A stretch of 64,000 nt of DNA, taken from the NCBI RefSeq assembly GCF_009914755.1, contig NC_060926.1; one strand, written 5' to 3'. The position numbers were made by a program, and so were the translations under genes. Origin of the DNA: the human T2T-CHM13v2.0 reference genome, Homo sapiens. The notes under the pieces are model-generated. The model was not told the origin of the DNA and did no database searches. It saw only the letters and a list, made by a program, of their open reading frames with translations. Below, in pieces: positions 3,467 through 63,500 of the stretch (its first letter is position 1; every line of letters starts with the position of its first letter).

Positions 3467-5686
3467 TGCTCAGGCTTGAGTAGGTAAACAAAGCAGCTGG
3501 GAAGGTTGAACTGGGTGGAGCCCACCACAGCTCAAGGAGGCCTGCCTGCCCCTGTAGGCTCCACCTCTGGGGGCAGGGCACAGACACACAAAAGGCAGCA
3601 ATAACTTCTGCAGACTTAAATGTCCCTGTCTGACAGCTTTGAAGAGAGTAGTGGTTCTCCCAGCACACAGCTTGAGATCTGAGAACAGACAGACTGCCTC
3701 CTCAAGTGGGTGCCTGACCCCCGAGTAGCCTAACTGGGAGGCACCCCCCAGTAGGGGCAGACTGACACCTTACACGGCCAGGTACTCCTCTGAGATAAAA
3801 CTTCCAGAGGAACAATCAGACAGCAGCATTTGTGGTTCACCAATATCCACTGTTCTGCAGCCACCACTGCTGATACCCAGGCAAACAGGGTCTGGAGTGG
3901 ACCTCCAGTAAACTCCAACGGACCTGCAGCTGAGAGTCCTGACTGTTAGAAGGAAAACTAACAAACAGAAAGGACATCCACACCAAAAACTCATCTGTAC
4001 GTCACCATCATCAAAGACCAAAGGTAGATAAAACCACAAAGATGGGGAAAAAACAGAGCAGAAAAACTGGAAACTCTAAAAATCAGAGCACCTCTCCTCT
4101 TCCAAAGGAACGCAGCTCCTCACCAGCAATGGAACAAAGCTGGATGGAGAATGACTTTGACGAGTTGAGAGAGGAAGGCTTCAGAAGATCAAACTACTCC
4201 AAGCTAAAGGAGGAAGTTCGAACCAATAGCAAAGAAGTTAAAAACTTTGAAAAAAAATTAGATGAATGGATAACTAGAATAACCAATGCAGAGAAGTCCT
4301 TAAAGGACCTGATGGAGCTGAAAACCATGGCACAAGAACTACGTGATGAATGCACAAGCCTCAGTAACCGATGCGATCAACTGGAAGAAAGGGTATCAGC
4401 GATGGAAGATGAAATGAATGAAATGAAGCGTGAAGAGAAGTTTAGAGAAAAAAGAAATGAACAAAGCCTCCAAGAAATATGGAACTATGTGAAAAGACCA
4501 AATCTACATCTCATTAGTGTACCTGAAAGTGATGGGGAGAATGGAACCAAGTTGGAAAACACTCTGCAGGATATTATCCAGGAGAACTTCCCCAATCTAG
4601 CAAGGCAAGCCAACATTCAGATTCAGGAAATACAGAGAACGCCACAAAGATACTCCTCGAGAAGAGCAACTCCAAGACACATAATTGTCAGATTCATCAA
4701 AGTTGAAATGAAGGAAAAAATGTTAAGGGCAGCCAGAGAGAAAGGTCAGGTTACCCACAAAGGGAAGCCCATCAGACTAACAGCTGATCTCTCAGCAGAA
4801 ACTCTACAAGCCAGAAGAGAGTGGGGGACAATATTCAACATTCTTAAAGAAAATAATTTTCAACCCAGAATTGCATATCCAGCCAAACTAAGCTTCATAA
4901 GTGAAGGAGAAATAAAATCCTTTACAGACAAGCAAATGCTGAGAGATTTTGCCGCCACCAGACCTGCCCTAAAAGAGCTCCTGAAGGAAGCACTAAACAT
5001 GGAAAGGAACAACTGGTACCAGCCACTGTAAAAACATGCCAAATTGTAAAGGCCATCAAGGCTAGGAAGAAACTGCATCAACTAACGAGCAAAATAACCA
5101 GCTAACATCATCATGACAGGATCAAATTCACCCATAACAATACTAACCTTAAATGTAAATGGGCTAAATGCTCCAATTAAAAGGCACAGACTGGCAAATT
5201 GGATAAAGAGTCAAGACCCACCAGTATGCTGTATTCAGGAAACCCATCTCACGTGCAGAGACACACATAGGCTCACAATAAAGGGATGGAGGAAGATCTA
5301 CCAAGCAAATGGAAAAAAAAAGAAGGCAGGGGTTGCAATCCTAGTCTTGGATAAAACAGATTTCAAACCAACAAAGATCAAAAGAGACAAAGAAGGCCAT
5401 TACATAATGATAAAGGGATCAATTCAACAAGAAGAACTAACTATCCTAAATATATATGCACCCAATACAGGAGCACCCAGATTCATAAAGCAAGTCCTTA
5501 GTGACCTACAAAAAGACTTAGACTCCCACACAATAATAATGGGAGACTTTAACACCCCACTGTCAACATTAGATAGATCAACGAGACAGAAAGTTAACAA
5601 GGATATCCAGGAATTGCACTCAGCTCTGCACCAAGCAGACCTAACAGACACCTACAGAACTCTCCACCCCAAATCAACAGAATATA
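3011..5686 (+). mobile_element. L1PA (about L1PA3-L1PA5) 5' portion: full 5'UTR, ORF1 and the start of ORF2; 3'-truncated at 5686
   Basis: Starts gaggagggtggagccaag. The ~1030-nt 5'UTR keeps the ~129-nt segment lost in younger L1s. L1 homology stops at ...caacagaatata with no poly-A tail. Confidence 0.97.
4042..5031 (+). CDS. LINE-1 ORF1p, near-intact (329 aa; 3-aa deletion, premature stop removing the last 6 aa)
   Basis: MGKKQSRKTGNSKNQS..., coiled coil, RRM (RPNLHLI), ARREW and YPAKLS motifs. Confidence 0.9.
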   Translation: MGKKQSRKTGNSKNQSTSPLPKERSSSPAMEQSWMENDFDELREEGFRRSNYSKLKEEVRTNSKEVKNFEKKLDEWITRITNAEKSLKDLMELKTMAQELRDECTSLSNRCDQLEERVSAMEDEMNEMKREEKFREKRNEQSLQEIWNYVKRPNLHLISVPESDGENGTKLENTLQDIIQENFPNLARQANIQIQEIQRTPQRYSSRRATPRHIIVRFIKVEMKEKMLRAAREKGQVTHKGKPIRLTADLSAETLQARREWGTIFNILKENNFQPRIAYPAKLSFISEGEIKSFTDKQMLRDFAATRPALKELLKEALNMERNNWYQPL

Positions 5687-5808
5687 AACCCGTTCGAGAG
5701 CCATCTGATGGGCAGGCCAGGGCTGACAGAGGTGAGCGGCCATGGCAGCAGCACCCGGAGGAGAGGGGTCAGGTTTGGGATGTGTCGGAGGTGGAGCACC
5801 AGGATTAA
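5113..5808 (+). pseudogene. Truncated L1 ORF2p endonuclease (about aa 1-191) fused in frame to about 40 codons of flanking non-L1 DNA
   Basis: [23 protein letters not shown] and GDFNTPL present; lacks the D205/H230 region. Confidence 0.85.
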
Positions 5809-60513: not shown

Positions 60514-60576
60514 AGACCATCAAGGCTAGGAAGAAACTGCATCAACTAACGAGCAAAATAACCAGCTAACATCATC

Positions 60577-63500
60577 ATGACAGGATCAAATTCACCCATA
60601 ACAATACTAACCTTAAATGTAAATGGGCTAAATGCTCCAATTAAAAGGCACAGACTGGCAAGTTGGATAAAGAGTCAAGACCCATCAGTGTGCTGTATTC
60701 AGGAAACCCATCTCACGTGCAGAGACACACATAGGCTCACAATAAAGGGATGGAGGAAGCTCTACCAAGCAAATGGAAAACAAAAGAAGGCAGGGATTGC
60801 AATCCTAGTCTCGGATAAAACAGACTTTAAACCAGCAAATATCAAAAGAGACAAAGAAGGCCATTACCTAATGGTAAAGGCATCAATTCAACAAGAAGAA
60901 CTAACTATCCTAAATATATATGCACCCAATACAGGAGCACCCAGATTCATAAAGCAAGTCCTTAGTGACCTACAAAGAGACTTAGACTCCCACACAATAA
61001 TAATGGGAGACTTTAACACCCCACTGTCAACATTAGACAGATCAATGAGACAGAAAGTTAACAAGGATATCCAGGAATTGCACTCAGCTCTGCACCAAGC
61101 AGACCTAATAGACATCTATAGAACTCTCCACCCCAAATCAACAGAATATATGTTCTTTTCAGCACCACACTATACCTATTCCAAAACTGACCACATAGTT
61201 GGAAGTAAAGCACTCCTCAGCAAATGTAAAAGAACTGAAATTATAACAAACTGTCTCTCAGACCACAGTGCAATCAAACTAGAACTCAGGATTAAGAAAC
61301 TCACTCAAAACCGCTCAACTACATGGAAACTGAACAACCTGCTCCTGAATGACTACTGGGTACATAACGAAATGAAGGCAGAAATAAAGATGTTCTTTGA
61401 AACCAATGAGAACAAAGACACAACATACCAGAATCTCTGGGACGCATTCAAAGCAGTGTGTAGAGGGAAATTTATAGCACTAAATGCCCACAAGAGGAAG
61501 CAGGAAAGATCTAAAATTGACACCCTAACATCACAATTAAAAGAACCAGAGAAGCAAGAACAAACACATTCAAAAACTAGCAGAAGGCAAGAAGTAACTA
61601 AGATCAGAGAAGAACTGAAGGAAATAGAGACACAAAAAACCCTTCAAAAATCAGTGAATCCAGGAGCTGGTTTTTTGAAAAGCTCAACAAAATTGATAGA
61701 CTGCTAGCAAGACTAATAAAGAAGAAAAGAGAGAAGAATCAAATAGATGCAATAAAAAAATGATAAAGGGGATATCACCACTGATCCCACAGAAATACAA
61801 ACTACCATCAGAGAATACTATGAACACCTCTACGCAAATAAACTAGAAAATCTAGAAGAAATGGATAAATTCCTCTACACACACACCCTCCCAAGACTAA
61901 ACCAGGAAGAAGTTGGATCTCTGAATAGACCAATAACAGGCTCTGAAATTGAGGCAATAATTAATAGCTTACCAACCAAAAAGAGTCCAGGACCAGATGG
62001 ATTCACAGCCGAATTCTACCAGAGGTACAAGGAGGAGCTGGTACCATTCTTTCTGAAACTATTCCAATCAATAGAAAAAGAGGGAATCCTCCCTAACTCA
62101 TTTTATGAGGCCAGCATCATCCTGATACCAAAGACTGGCAGAGACACAACAAAAAAAGAGAATTTTAGAACAATATCCCTGATGAACATCGATGCAAAAA
62201 TCCTCAATAAAATACTGGCAAACTGAATCCAGCAGCACATCAAAAAGCCCACCACGATCAAGTGGACTTCATCCCTGGGATGCAAGGCTGGTTCAACATA
62301 CACAAATCAATAAATGTAATCCAGCATATAAACAGAACCAAAGACAAAAACCACATGATTATCTCAATAGATGCAGAAAAGGCCTTTGACAAAATTCAAC
62401 AACCCTTCATGCTAAAAACTCTCAATAAATTAGCTATTGACGGGACGTATCTCAAAATAATAAGAGCTATCTATGACAAACCCACAGCCAATATCATACT
62501 GAATGGGCAAAAACTGGAAGCATTCCCTTTGAAAACTGGCACAAGACAGGGATGCCCTCTCTCACCACTCCTATTCACCATAGTGTTGGAAGTTCTGGCC
62601 AGGGCAATCAGGCAGGAGAAGGAAATAAAGCGTATTCAATTAGGAAAAGAGGAAGTCAAATTGTCCCTGTTTGCATGTGACATGACTGTATATCTAGAAA
62701 ACCCCATCGTCTCAGCCCAAAATCTCCTCAAGCTGATAAGCAACTTCAGCAAAGTCTCAGGATACAAAATCAATGTGCAAAAATCACAAGCATTCTTATA
62801 CACCAATAACAGACAAACAGAGAGCCAAATCATGAGTGAACTCCCATTCATAACTGCTTCAAAGAGAATAAAATACCTAGGAATCCAACTTACAAGGGAT
62901 GTGAAGGACCTCTTCAAGGAGAACTACAAACCACTGCACAATGAGAAAAAAGAGGATACAAACAAATGGAAGAACATTCCACGCTCATTGGTAGGAGGAA
63001 TCAATATCGTGAAAATGGCCATACTGCCCAAGGGAATTTATAGATTCAATGCCATCCCCATCAAGCTACCAATGACTTTCTTCACAGAATTGGAAAAAAA
63101 TACTTTAAACTTCATATGGAACCAAAAAAGAGCCTGCATTGCCAAGTCAATCCTAAGCCAAAAGAACAAAGCTGGAGGCATCATGCTACCTGACTTCAAA
63201 CTATACTACAAGGCTACAGTAACCAAAACAGCATGGTACTGGTAGCAAAACAGAGATATAGACCAATGGAACAGAACAGAGCCCTCAAAAATAATGCCAC
63301 ATATCTACAACTATCTGATCTTTGACAAACCTGACAAAAACAAGAAATGGGGAAAGGATTCCCTATTTAATAAATGGTGCTGGGAAAACTGGCTAGCCAT
63401 ATGTAGAAAGCTGAAACTGGATCCCTTCCTTACACCTTATACAAAAATTAATTCAAGATGGATTAAAGACTTACATGTTAGACCTAAAACCATAAAAACC

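What the first reader, a model, noticed from the sequence alone, without database searches (positions are those of the whole stretch)
4492..61150. One L1 apparently split in two: ~54 kb of unrelated DNA flanked by a 1187-bp direct duplication of the same L1PA copy
Seen in sequence: the left L1 (3011-5686) has an intact 5' end but stops abruptly in ORF2 with no tail, which is atypical because retrotransposition truncates 5' ends. The right L1 (59949 onward) lacks the 5' part. Their overlap, 4500-5686 versus 59964-61150, is 1187 bp in both copies with no indels and about 39 substitutions by my hand count (~3.3%). Both carry the same departures from the L1PA consensus as I recall it: attAgtgt, gcaAgcc, catcatCatg and gaagaActa, plus six amino-acid changes (WGT for WGP, KEN for KEK, RIAYP for RISYP, SNSP for SNSH, RLTIK for RLKIK, ELHS for ELNS). 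Inference: shared non-synonymous, non-CpG changes are more likely neutral post-insertion mutations than features of an active source element, so the two pieces probably descend from one genomic copy. The simplest model is that a full-length L1 aged in place and the 5687-59948 segment then arrived by template switching, a staggered break or tandem duplication plus deletion, leaving a kilobase-scale target-site duplication. The ~3.3% divergence would suggest a hominoid-era event. The alternative is gene conversion between two neighbouring L1s.
Basis: partly seen in the sequence, partly recalled or inferred. Interest (0 to 1): 0.8.

Follow-up and report, generated by a model that had tools for sequence, protein, structure and literature searches.

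The report
Two neighbouring L1s linked by gene conversion
Two separately inserted LINE-1 copies 55 kb apart on human chromosome 2 share a 1.2-kb stretch that one most likely copied from the other by gene conversion, so this is an ordinary kind of event and not one element split by a 54-kb insertion.

Summary
Window 4500-5686 and 59964-61150 are 1187 bp each, gap-free, with 39 mismatches.

The split-L1 model fails its own test:
- Past the window end, the right L1 ends in an A-rich tail followed by its own 12-bp target-site duplication.
- The old L1M it interrupts resumes at the same ORF1 position.

The two copies are still specially related:
- They are reciprocal best genome-wide hits and form a clade with 99% support.
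- They share about 10 variants whose combinations occur nowhere else in the genome.
- Seven of the 9 coding variants are non-synonymous, against 0 of 5 lineage markers.

Lineage-diagnostic sites make the right copy a mosaic. Its overlap has the left copy's younger type and its 3' part an older type. That combination is seen in 1 of 50 other copies. Tree tests are borderline (p 0.04-0.10).

Best reading: non-allelic gene conversion from left to right, about 1 kb or more, roughly 10-17 Myr ago. It is a known kind of event, well resolved here.

The parts
2625..3010 (+). Old L1M-type LINE fragment (ORF1-like) into which the left L1 is inserted. It ends at L1 coordinate about 1976.
   Evidence: tblastx against the L1 copies: 2625-2741 matches L1 coordinates 1593-1709 and 2951-3010 matches 1917-1976. 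The part upstream of 2625 was not verified.
2995..3010 (+). Candidate upstream target-site duplication of the left L1. Its partner is missing.
   Evidence: The 16-mer does not recur with up to 2 mismatches in the window, L031 or L032. It is preceded by CT and starts with AAAA, which is endonuclease-site-like (read; weak).
3011..5686 (+). Left L1PA copy. The 5' end is complete. ORF1 runs 4042-5049, with a private stop at 5029-5031. ORF2 starts at 5113. The copy is cut off at 5686 without tail or TSD. Its lineage type is 'X-core' throughout. It is the inferred donor.
   Evidence: Sequence. 38 of 41 5' diagnostic sites and 9 of 10 overlap sites are X type.
4500..5686 (+). Overlap, left copy. It carries the 10 exclusive shared variants at 4516, 4608, 4828, 4854, 4873, 5112, 5132, 5276, 5322 and 5617.
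5686..5687 (.). Breakpoint where the left L1 meets unique GC-rich DNA. No L1 or L1M continues on the far side.
   Evidence: There are no L1 hits in 5687-8000. Window 5687-9000 has no paralogue in the genome.
59890..59955 (+). End of the L1M ORF1-like flank upstream of the right L1.
   Evidence: The 22-aa translation aligns to ORF1 fragment residues 73-81, E 0.002.
59944..59955 (+). Upstream copy of the right L1's target-site duplication (AAATTAAAAGAC). The downstream copy is at window 64634-64645 (L031:1634-1645), outside the window.
   Evidence: The 12-mers are identical and the 16-mers match at 15 of 16 positions. Sequence.
59956..59963 (+). 8-nt filler at the 5' junction of the right L1.
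   Evidence: Read.
59964..64000 (+). Right L1PA copy, 5'-truncated. It continues to window 64633 (L031:1633), including an A-rich tail. It is a classical insertion. Its 3' part is of the older 'intermediate' lineage type.
   Evidence: L031:1590-1633 is 41 of 44 A/T. Lineage type.
59964..61150 (+). Overlap, right copy. This is the inferred converted tract (acceptor). It is X-core type at the equivalents of 5143, 5184 and 5436.
4749..4951 (+). Difference-free block 1 (equals right 60213-60415). It holds exclusive variants 4828, 4854 and 4873. It may be a later, shorter conversion tract.
5053..5197 (+). Difference-free block 2 (equals right 60517-60661). It holds exclusive variants 5112 and 5132.

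Best explanation
These are two independent L1PA retrotransposon insertions in the same orientation, 55 kb apart.

The right copy is a classical 5'-truncated target-primed insertion into an old L1M, with an A-rich tail and its own 12-16 bp target-site duplication. It belongs to a slightly older stage of the L1 lineage.

The left copy is a full-length insertion of a slightly younger stage. It later lost everything 3' of position 5686, together with its tail, its second TSD and the rest of its host L1M. This was most simply one deletion (inferred).

The left copy had sat in place long enough to pick up about 10 neutral changes in the 1187-bp region. A non-allelic (interlocus) gene conversion then overwrote the homologous stretch of the right copy with the left copy's sequence. 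This was presumably repair of a break in the right copy using the left copy as template. The tract spans at least 4828 to 5617, about 0.8 kb. It probably spans the whole 1.19-kb overlap.

Since then each copy has gained about 19-20 private changes, or 1.6% per lineage. With recalled hominoid substitution rates this puts the event roughly 10-17 Myr ago (inference).

Two difference-free blocks (203 and 145 bp) may reflect later short conversion tracts.

Shown here:
- independent insertion of the two copies;
- an exclusive shared haplotype;
- a neutral-looking pattern in the shared changes.

Suggested at p of about 0.01-0.1: the mosaic lineage type of the right copy.

Inferred: the direction of conversion, the single-tract reading, the date, and the deletion in the left copy.
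For: (1) Independent origins. The right copy has its own TSD and its L1M flank is continuous across it. The flanks of the two copies are different L1M fragments that overlap in L1 coordinates. Window 5687-9000 has no paralogue.

(2) A special relationship.
- The copies are reciprocal best hits. The partner has 39 mismatches; the next best have 45, 48 and 49. Only 40 of 8900 and 40 of 8557 candidates were scored.
- The pair forms a clade with SH-aLRT 99 among 53 rows and 99/99 among 29 rows. The shared stem is 0.013 and the tips are 0.017-0.019.

(3) An exclusive haplotype.
- None of 51 other copies carries more than 1 of 8 rare shared variants.
- A whole-genome pattern scan of the 56-mer with three of the variants gave 161 matches at up to 2 mismatches. 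Only the two window copies are at 0 mismatches, and one copy is at 1.
- The 66-mer with 5112 and 5132 is 100% identical only in the pair.
- The two partial sharers, L063 and L064, each carry 2 of the 10 variants and none of the other 8.

(4) The shared changes look like decay of a genomic copy. Seven are non-synonymous and 2 synonymous. The five lineage markers the pair shares with many other copies (4620, 5143, 5184, 5349, 5436) are all synonymous (Fisher p about 0.01 by my calculation).

(5) The right copy is a mosaic.
- The left copy is X-core type at 38 of 41 5' sites. Both copies are X-core at 9 of 10 overlap sites. The right copy's 3' part has ancestral states at 3 of 11 sites.
- Nine comparators carry the pair's C/G/A at 5143/5184/5436. 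Eight of them have C at 61764 and only L028 has T, the state in the right copy. L028 is itself an evident chimera.
- Of the 34 comparators with T at 61764, 29 carry none of the three overlap states. The association has p = 1.8e-4.
- In the 3' tree the right copy sits with intermediate-type copies (91/88), inside a 98/91 clade that excludes the X side.

(6) Nonallelic gene conversion between dispersed retroelements is established, and it is favoured by proximity. See PMC6598467 (passages) and an intrachromosomal conversion inside an L1 in PMC1920257 (passages).
Against: - The tree tests of the mosaic are borderline. In the 3' part, holding the right copy with the X side gives p-AU 0.04 for the pre-named group and 0.076 for the group as seen in the tree. 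In the overlap, holding the pair with the intermediate copies gives p 0.09-0.10.
- The site argument rests on 3 overlap sites and 2-3 sites in the 3' part.
- A tract of about 1 kb at 55 kb distance is long and far. The one source I read gives raised conversion rates for Alu at under 10 kb (PMC6598467).
- Variant 4516 lies only 17 bp from the edge of homology. It may instead be a parallel transition.
- Under conversion, stem plus tip in the overlap should equal the donor's time in place. It is 0.031, above all comparators (at most 0.028). The comparators were, however, chosen for low divergence in this region.
- Counts of unique variants by region could not separate the models.
- The uneven spacing of the differences is only marginal against real unrelated pairs. 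In that control, 6.8% and 2.0% of 293 pairs do as well.
- Comparators are a small, non-random sample. BLAST-type genome searches scored 40 candidates per search.
Confidence: 0.65

Rival explanations
1. Kinship by retrotransposition. The right copy is an RNA-mediated offspring of the then-intact left copy. Alternatively both are the only two surviving offspring of one minor source. Either way they landed 55 kb apart by chance. The shared variants were then already in the source RNA.
For: - The sharing runs across the whole overlap, from 4516 to 5617. Descent predicts this without any limit on tract length.
- The two private branches are equal at 19 and 20 changes.
- The tips equal the median tip of other copies.
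- No shared stop or frameshift is seen in the overlap.
Against: - The right copy's 3' part is of an older lineage type than the left copy's 5' part and the overlap. An offspring of the left copy should be X-core throughout.
- The exclusive shared changes look unselected, 7 non-synonymous to 2 synonymous, whereas lineage markers are 0 to 5. The source would therefore have been a decaying copy that needed help in trans.
- From established knowledge (recalled), L1 offspring land genome-wide. A landing within 55 kb has a prior of about 3.5e-5 per insertion.
- No third member of the supposed sub-lineage exists in the genome.
Confidence: 0.13
2. One full-length L1 aged in place and was then split by the arrival of 5687-59948, through a staggered break, template switching, or duplication plus deletion. 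This left a 1187-bp duplication of L1 sequence.
For: - The left copy lacks its 3' part and the right copy lacks its 5' part.
- The overlap is gap-free with 39 differences.
- The shared variants are exclusive to the pair and look neutral.
Against: - The right L1's 5' end is a retrotransposition junction, not a rearrangement breakpoint. It has its own TSD at both ends, an A-rich tail, and its host L1M continues across it.
- The left copy's TSD is not found after the right copy.
- The two L1M flanks overlap in L1 coordinates.
- The right copy's 3' part is of a different lineage type from the left copy.
Confidence: 0.02
3. No special event. Both copies are ordinary, independent members of an under-sampled L1PA sub-lineage that carries these variants. 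The apparent exclusivity is a sampling artefact.
For: - BLAST-type genome searches scored only 40 of 8900, 813, 1566, 161 and 8557 candidates.
- Single variants do occur in other copies. For example, T at 4854 is carried by 17 of 51.
Against: - The pattern scan reports whole counts for the genome (its own note). It found the three-variant 56-mer, with up to 2 mismatches allowed, complete only in the pair.
- No other copy among 51, nor L063 or L064, carries more than 2 of the 10 variants.
- Two members of a tiny sub-lineage lying 55 kb apart would itself need explaining.
Confidence: 0.05

Closest known systems
Non-allelic (interlocus) gene conversion between dispersed retroelements, as described for Alu and other transposable elements (PMC6598467; passages read)
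   Same: Two paralogous copies of independent origin on one chromosome. A patch in which one carries the other's private mutations. Reduced divergence and a tree that conflicts with the copies' true history.
   Different: The elements here are L1s rather than Alus. The tract is about 1 kb or more and the distance is 55 kb. The passage I read gives raised rates at under 10 kb. The donor's far end is missing, so one tract boundary cannot be seen.
Classical target-primed reverse transcription insertion of a 5'-truncated L1
   Same: The right copy has 5' truncation, an A-rich tail, a 12-16 bp TSD that starts with A's after AT (endonuclease-site-like), and a short filler with microhomology at the 5' junction.
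   Different: Nothing departs from the classical pattern, apart from the converted patch.
Non-classical (endonuclease-independent) L1 insertions, NCLI (PMC1920257; passages read)
   Same: The left copy is 3'-truncated, lacks a poly(A) tail and has no TSD partner. Target DNA, namely the rest of the host L1M, is missing. That paper reports target deletions of 5 to 14,534 bp at 18 of 21 NCLI loci.
   Different: The left copy has a complete 5' end. A plausible 16-bp TSD-like stretch preceded by an endonuclease-like site lies upstream of it, which fits classical insertion followed by deletion. The pre-insertion state cannot be seen here.
Segmental duplication carrying an L1
   Same: Neighbouring L1 copies that share rare variants. 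Several such neighbour pairs turned up in my searches.
   Different: The homology here stops exactly at the L1 ends. The flanks are unrelated and 5687-9000 is single-copy.

Membership tests
LINE-1 (L1PA-type) element | Encodes ORF1p and ORF2p (endonuclease first) in that order on one strand | tested here: met
   Right-copy translations match solved human L1 ORF1p (E 1.1e-96) and the ORF2p endonuclease (E 3e-118). The closest genomic relatives are 95-96% identical L1 copies. The subfamily number was not assigned because no repeat library was on hand.
Classical TPRT insertion (right copy) | A-rich tail followed by a direct repeat of the target (TSD), with the target sequence continuous across the insertion | tested here: met
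   12-mers identical and 16-mers matching at 15 of 16 positions. The tail is 41 of 44 A/T. L1M ORF1 resumes at the same residue.
Classical TPRT insertion (left copy) | Tail and second TSD copy | tested here: not met
   The copy stops at 5686 with no tail. The 16-mer at 2995-3010 has no second copy within the window or 10 kb on either side. This is compatible with later deletion.
Non-allelic gene conversion | The two copies have independent origins (different insertion sites and flanks) | tested here: met
Non-allelic gene conversion | Private mutations of one copy are present in the other and are exclusive to the pair | tested here: met
Non-allelic gene conversion | Within one copy, the converted patch and the rest of the copy have conflicting histories | tested here: inconclusive
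   Site patterns say yes: the combination is seen in 1 of 50 comparators and the association has p 1.8e-4. The 3' tree places the right copy with the intermediate types. AU tests give p 0.04, 0.076, 0.09 and 0.10.
Non-allelic gene conversion | Visible tract boundaries | tested here: inconclusive
   The overlap ends at both copies' ends. The 3' boundary lies between 61081 and 61764 in the right copy. Internal difference-free blocks are marginal.
Non-allelic gene conversion | Pre-conversion state seen in an outgroup species | not testable with these tools
   No other primate genome is held (note: 'no relatives here').
Segmental duplication | Homology extends into the flanks | tested here: not met
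   The alignment breaks down on both sides of the overlap. No long direct repeat other than the L1 was found.
Endonuclease-independent L1 insertion (NCLI), left copy | 3' truncation, no tail and no TSD (three of the four criteria in PMC1920257) | tested here: met
Endonuclease-independent L1 insertion (NCLI), left copy | Insertion site departs from the endonuclease consensus, and the pre-insertion site is verified in another species | not testable with these tools
   Only the 5' junction survives and no outgroup genome is held.

The most novel reading that the evidence does not exclude
The two L1 copies have exchanged sequence more than once over more than 10 Myr. First came an old tract of about 1 kb. 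Later came short tracts, the 203-bp and 145-bp blocks with no difference at all, possibly within the last few million years. That would be continuing concerted evolution between dispersed, decayed L1s 55 kb apart in a subtelomeric region. If such exchange is common, it would bias L1 ages and subfamily calls taken from divergence.
Probability: 0.25. Interest if true: 0.4.

Novelty: new member of a known kind. Interest (0 to 1): 0.25.

Why it matters
- It removes a false lead. There is no 54-kb insertion with a kilobase-scale target duplication here.
- It gives a cleanly resolved case of one L1 overwriting part of a neighbour. Donor, acceptor and approximate date are all inferable from a single genome.
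- Such events make an old insertion look younger and move decayed, non-functional sequence between loci.
- They can also mislead dating and subfamily assignment that assume each copy mutates on its own.
- The method may be reusable in a genome-wide scan. It combines a genome-wide check that the shared haplotype is exclusive with lineage-diagnostic sites inside and outside the shared stretch.

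Tried and rejected
- **Segmental duplication.** Rejected. The flanks are unrelated and 5687-9000 is single-copy.
- **Remainder of the left L1 or its L1M elsewhere.** tblastx of the window and 10 kb on each side found only old, low-identity L1 pieces and nothing that fits.
- **Third members of a sub-lineage.** L063 (C7) and L064 (C2, 1.27 Mb away) looked promising. Each shares only 2 of the 10 variants, and they are 90-94% identical overall.
- **Mutation spectrum of the shared changes.** The share of transversions (5 of 7) is not different from comparator singletons (200 of 458; p 0.25). An A>C excess (4 of 7 against 39 of 458; p 0.002, uncorrected) is left unexplained.
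- **Density of unique variants in the flanks against the overlap.** Left 5' part 18 of 1415 sites and overlap 17 of 1175. Right overlap 22 of 1175 and 3' part 22 of 1469. The comparators are biased, so this is inconclusive.
- **Spacing of the 39 differences.** Simulations gave p 0.005-0.036. The empirical control with 293 unrelated pairs gave 0.068 and 0.020. Outside the two blocks the partner is not the nearest copy: 5 of 51 others are closer to the left copy and 2 of 51 are closer to the right. Part of this follows from how the blocks were removed.
- **blastn of the L1M flanks.** Too insensitive for ORF1, so tblastx and protein comparison were used instead.
- **Larger comparator set around the right copy.** Not obtained.
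- **Rows dropped.** L023 (a near-copy of L018) and seven very divergent set-B copies were dropped from the spectrum and coding analyses. L006 was dropped from the 3' analyses because its 3' flank is not L1. Copies covering less than the required span were dropped from each alignment.

Full report
**Observation.** The window is G000:C2:3038001-3102000. Window 4500-5686 and 59964-61150 are each 1187 bp and align without gaps. They differ at 39 positions (3.29%), of which 32 are transitions and 8 lie in CpG context. The repeat finder's only other families are short interspersed repeats of 214-256 nt and two tandem arrays.

The left L1 begins with a complete 5' end at 3011 and stops at 5686 inside ORF2 with no tail. 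The right L1 begins at 59964 and runs off the window. Translations of the right copy match solved human L1 ORF1p (E 1.1e-96) and the ORF2p endonuclease (E 3e-118).

**The split-L1 model fails.** I read 10 kb past the window end as L031, where L031 position x equals window x + 63000.
- The right L1 runs to its normal 3' end and an A-rich tail. L031:1590-1633 is 41 of 44 A/T.
- The tail is followed by AAATTAAAAGAC at L031:1634-1645. This is identical to window 59944-59955, directly upstream of the element. As 16-mers, 15 of 16 positions match.
- The old L1M-type element on the upstream side ends at a point that aligns to ORF1-fragment residues 73-81 plus 13 more residues (E 0.002).
- The downstream flank starts again at residue 93 (E 0.001). 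It then continues collinearly through ORF2, at L1 coordinates 1789 to 4988.

So the right L1 is a complete classical insertion unit. Its 5' end is a retrotransposition truncation, not a rearrangement breakpoint.
- The L1M left of the left L1 ends at L1 coordinate about 1976. The L1M after the right L1 covers 1789-1976 itself, so it cannot be the left one's continuation.
- The left copy's putative 16-base TSD recurs nowhere in the window or in 10 kb on either side, even with 2 mismatches allowed.
- DNA-level duplication of any kind is excluded for the same reason.
- Window 5687-9000 has no paralogue in the genome.

**The two copies are nevertheless specially related.**
- With the left overlap as query, the right copy is the best genome-wide hit. 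It has 39 mismatches, and the next best have 45, 48 and 49. The reverse search gives the same result.
- These searches scored only 40 of 8900 and 40 of 8557 candidates, so on their own they are weak.
- Against 28 other copies, the pair shares 20 deviations from the majority state. The mean over all 435 pairs is 3.1. Only one other pair reaches this level: L018/L023, which are near-identical copies on two chromosomes.
- With 51 other copies, 8 shared variants are carried by 0 to 4 of them (4516, 4608, 4828, 5112, 5132, 5276, 5322, 5617). No other copy carries more than one of the eight.
- Two more variants, 4854 and 4873, are carried by 1 and 0 of the 28 copies that were not chosen for that segment.
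- A pattern scan, whose counts cover the whole genome (the tool's own note), used the 56-mer holding 4828, 4854 and 4873. It found 161 matches at up to 2 mismatches. The two window copies are at 0 mismatches and one copy is at 1. All other listed matches are at 2, and 61 matches were not listed.
- The 66-mer holding 5112 and 5132 is 100% identical only in the pair.
- The single copy that shares 5276 and 5322 (L064) and the one that shares 4828 and 4854 (L063) carry none of the other eight variants. They are only 90-94% identical overall.
- In trees the pair is a clade with SH-aLRT 99 among 53 rows and 99/99 among 29 rows. The stem is 0.013 and the tips are 0.017-0.019.

**What kind of changes are shared.**
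- Of the ten exclusive variants, nine are coding. Seven are non-synonymous and two synonymous.
- The five non-CpG lineage markers that the pair shares with many other copies (4620, 5143, 5184, 5349, 5436) are all synonymous. Fisher p is about 0.01 by my own calculation from these counts.
They do not look like features of an active master lineage.
The tenth, 5436, is a common marker.

**Telling conversion from kinship.** Retrotranspositional kinship and gene conversion both predict a shared stem with equal private branches. I therefore looked for a conflict between the overlap and the rest of each copy.
- 62 sites separate an older type ('Y') from a younger type ('X-core') among 17 full-length comparators.
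- The left copy is X type at 38 of 41 sites in its 5' part. Both copies are X type at 9 of 10 overlap sites.
- The right copy carries the older state at 3 of 11 sites in the first 1.5 kb of its 3' part.
- With 50 comparators the series Y, then intermediate, then X-core is clear.
- Nine comparators carry the pair's C/G/A at 5143/5184/5436. Eight of them have C at 61764. Only L028 has T, as the right copy does, and L028 is itself X type in 5' and overlap and Y type in 3'.
- Of the 34 comparators with T at 61764, 29 carry none of the three overlap states. The association has p 1.8e-4.
- Four comparators (L007, L015, L016, L025) show that 61764 changed before the overlap sites did, so the right copy's combination is out of order.
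- The right copy also has the older G at 61983, which 9 of 27 covered comparators have.
- In a 28-row tree of the 3' part, the right copy sits with intermediate copies L007, L011, L017 and L024 (91/88). They lie inside a 98/91 clade that excludes the X side.
- The AU tests are only borderline. Holding the right copy with my pre-named X-core group gives p 0.04. Holding it with the X side as seen in the tree gives p 0.076. In the overlap, holding the pair with the rows it joins in the 3' part gives p 0.10 and 0.09.

On balance the right copy is a mosaic whose overlap is of the left copy's type. That is what conversion from left to right predicts. An offspring of the left copy should not show it.

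**Other tests that did not decide.**
- The 39 differences leave two empty blocks, 4749-4951 and 5053-5197. Together they hold five of the ten exclusive variants.
- Simulations give p 0.005-0.036 for such gaps. Among 293 unrelated pairs with 33-45 differences, 6.8% have as long a single run and 2.0% as large a top-two sum.
- Inside the blocks the pair has 0 of 348 differences, against at least 7 for any other copy. Outside them it has 39 of 839, and 5 of 51 and 2 of 51 others are closer.
- The blocks may be later short tracts, but the evidence is marginal.
- Counts of unique variants by region did not separate the models.

**The left copy's 3' end.** Nothing L1-like follows 5686. No fitting remainder lies in the window or in 10 kb on either side.
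- One deletion that removed the L1's 3' 3.4 kb, its tail, the second TSD and the rest of the host L1M is the simplest reading.
- The CT|AAAA context 16 bp upstream of the 5' end fits a classical insertion (weak).
- An endonuclease-independent insertion with target loss is the alternative. It meets three of the four criteria given in PMC1920257. That paper reports target deletions at 18 of 21 loci, of up to 14,534 bp (passages).
- This cannot be settled without an outgroup.

**Priors (my estimate from recalled knowledge, not a tool result).**
- L1 offspring land genome-wide, so a landing within 55 kb of the source has a chance of about 3.5e-5.
- Same-family L1 pairs within 55 kb number in the hundreds or more.
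- Nonallelic conversion between retroelements is established and favoured by proximity (PMC6598467, passages).
- This, together with the mosaic and the unselected look of the shared changes, leads me to put conversion at about 0.65. I put kinship at about 0.13, an unsampled sub-lineage at about 0.05 and the split model at about 0.02. The remainder is for something not considered.

**Date.** The 39 differences in 1187 bp come to about 1.6-1.7% per lineage. With recalled hominoid rates of about 1.0-1.2e-9 per site per year, and somewhat faster for CpG-bearing repeats, this gives roughly 10-17 Myr. It is an inference.

**Literature.** Three searches concerned the phenomenon, not this locus. I read passages of PMC6598467 and PMC1920257 only. 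I make no claim about whether this locus has been described.

**Verdict.** The event is of a known kind, so interest is low to moderate.

Noticed in passing
window 59949-59963 versus 4488-4499: The 5' junction of the right L1 is complex. The last 7-8 target bases (AAAAGAC, then C) are identical to the L1 bases just upstream of the truncation point in the left copy. An 8-nt filler follows, ending in TGTG, which in the left copy precedes that motif. This looks like microhomology-assisted 5' joining.
   Followed up: no
L018 (G000:C1:40235751-40236937) and L023 (G000:C8:68789949-68791135): Two L1 copies on different chromosomes differ at only 5 of 1187 positions and share 21 deviations from the majority. 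This is probably an interchromosomal segmental duplication.
   Followed up: no
L036/L037 (G000:C7, 32.83 and 32.85 Mb, opposite strands) and L059/L060 (G000:C3, 13.996 and 14.074 Mb, opposite strands): Two more neighbouring L1 pairs are each other's closest relatives (SH-aLRT 98 and 97). L059/L060 have the longest identical runs of all pairs with 33-45 differences. Several other same-chromosome neighbour pairs share a rare variant. Neighbour similarity among L1s, by duplication or conversion, seems common.
   Followed up: partly
L028 (G000:C19:37248438-37249623 and flanks): This L1 copy is X type across its 5' part and the overlap region but Y type at 10 of 11 diagnostic sites in its 3' part. 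It is a clear chimera, either recombinant or converted.
   Followed up: partly
window 5112, 5132, 5276, 5617 (and 4873 on the other strand): The exclusive shared variants are rich in A-to-C changes: 4 of 7 by the strict count, against 39 of 458 singletons in other copies (p 0.002, uncorrected). No explanation was found.
   Followed up: partly
window 4500-5686 and 59964-61150: The private differences of the two copies are unusually rich in transitions: 30 of 37, against 258 of 458 singletons in other copies. This may reflect the subtelomeric, GC-rich setting, or the way singletons were defined.
   Followed up: no
window 7405-7864 and 33336-34000: There is a tandem array of a 92-bp unit (4 copies of a 184-nt reference, 81-94% identical) that overlaps the RefSeq enhancer at 7022-7569. 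There is also a minisatellite with spacings of 9-18 bp and 43 registered copies.
   Followed up: no
window 57651-58255 (minus strand) and L031:2400-2690: Another old L1 3' fragment lies in the opposite orientation just upstream of the right L1's host L1M. An Alu-like insertion, identified by eye, interrupts that L1M downstream.
   Followed up: no
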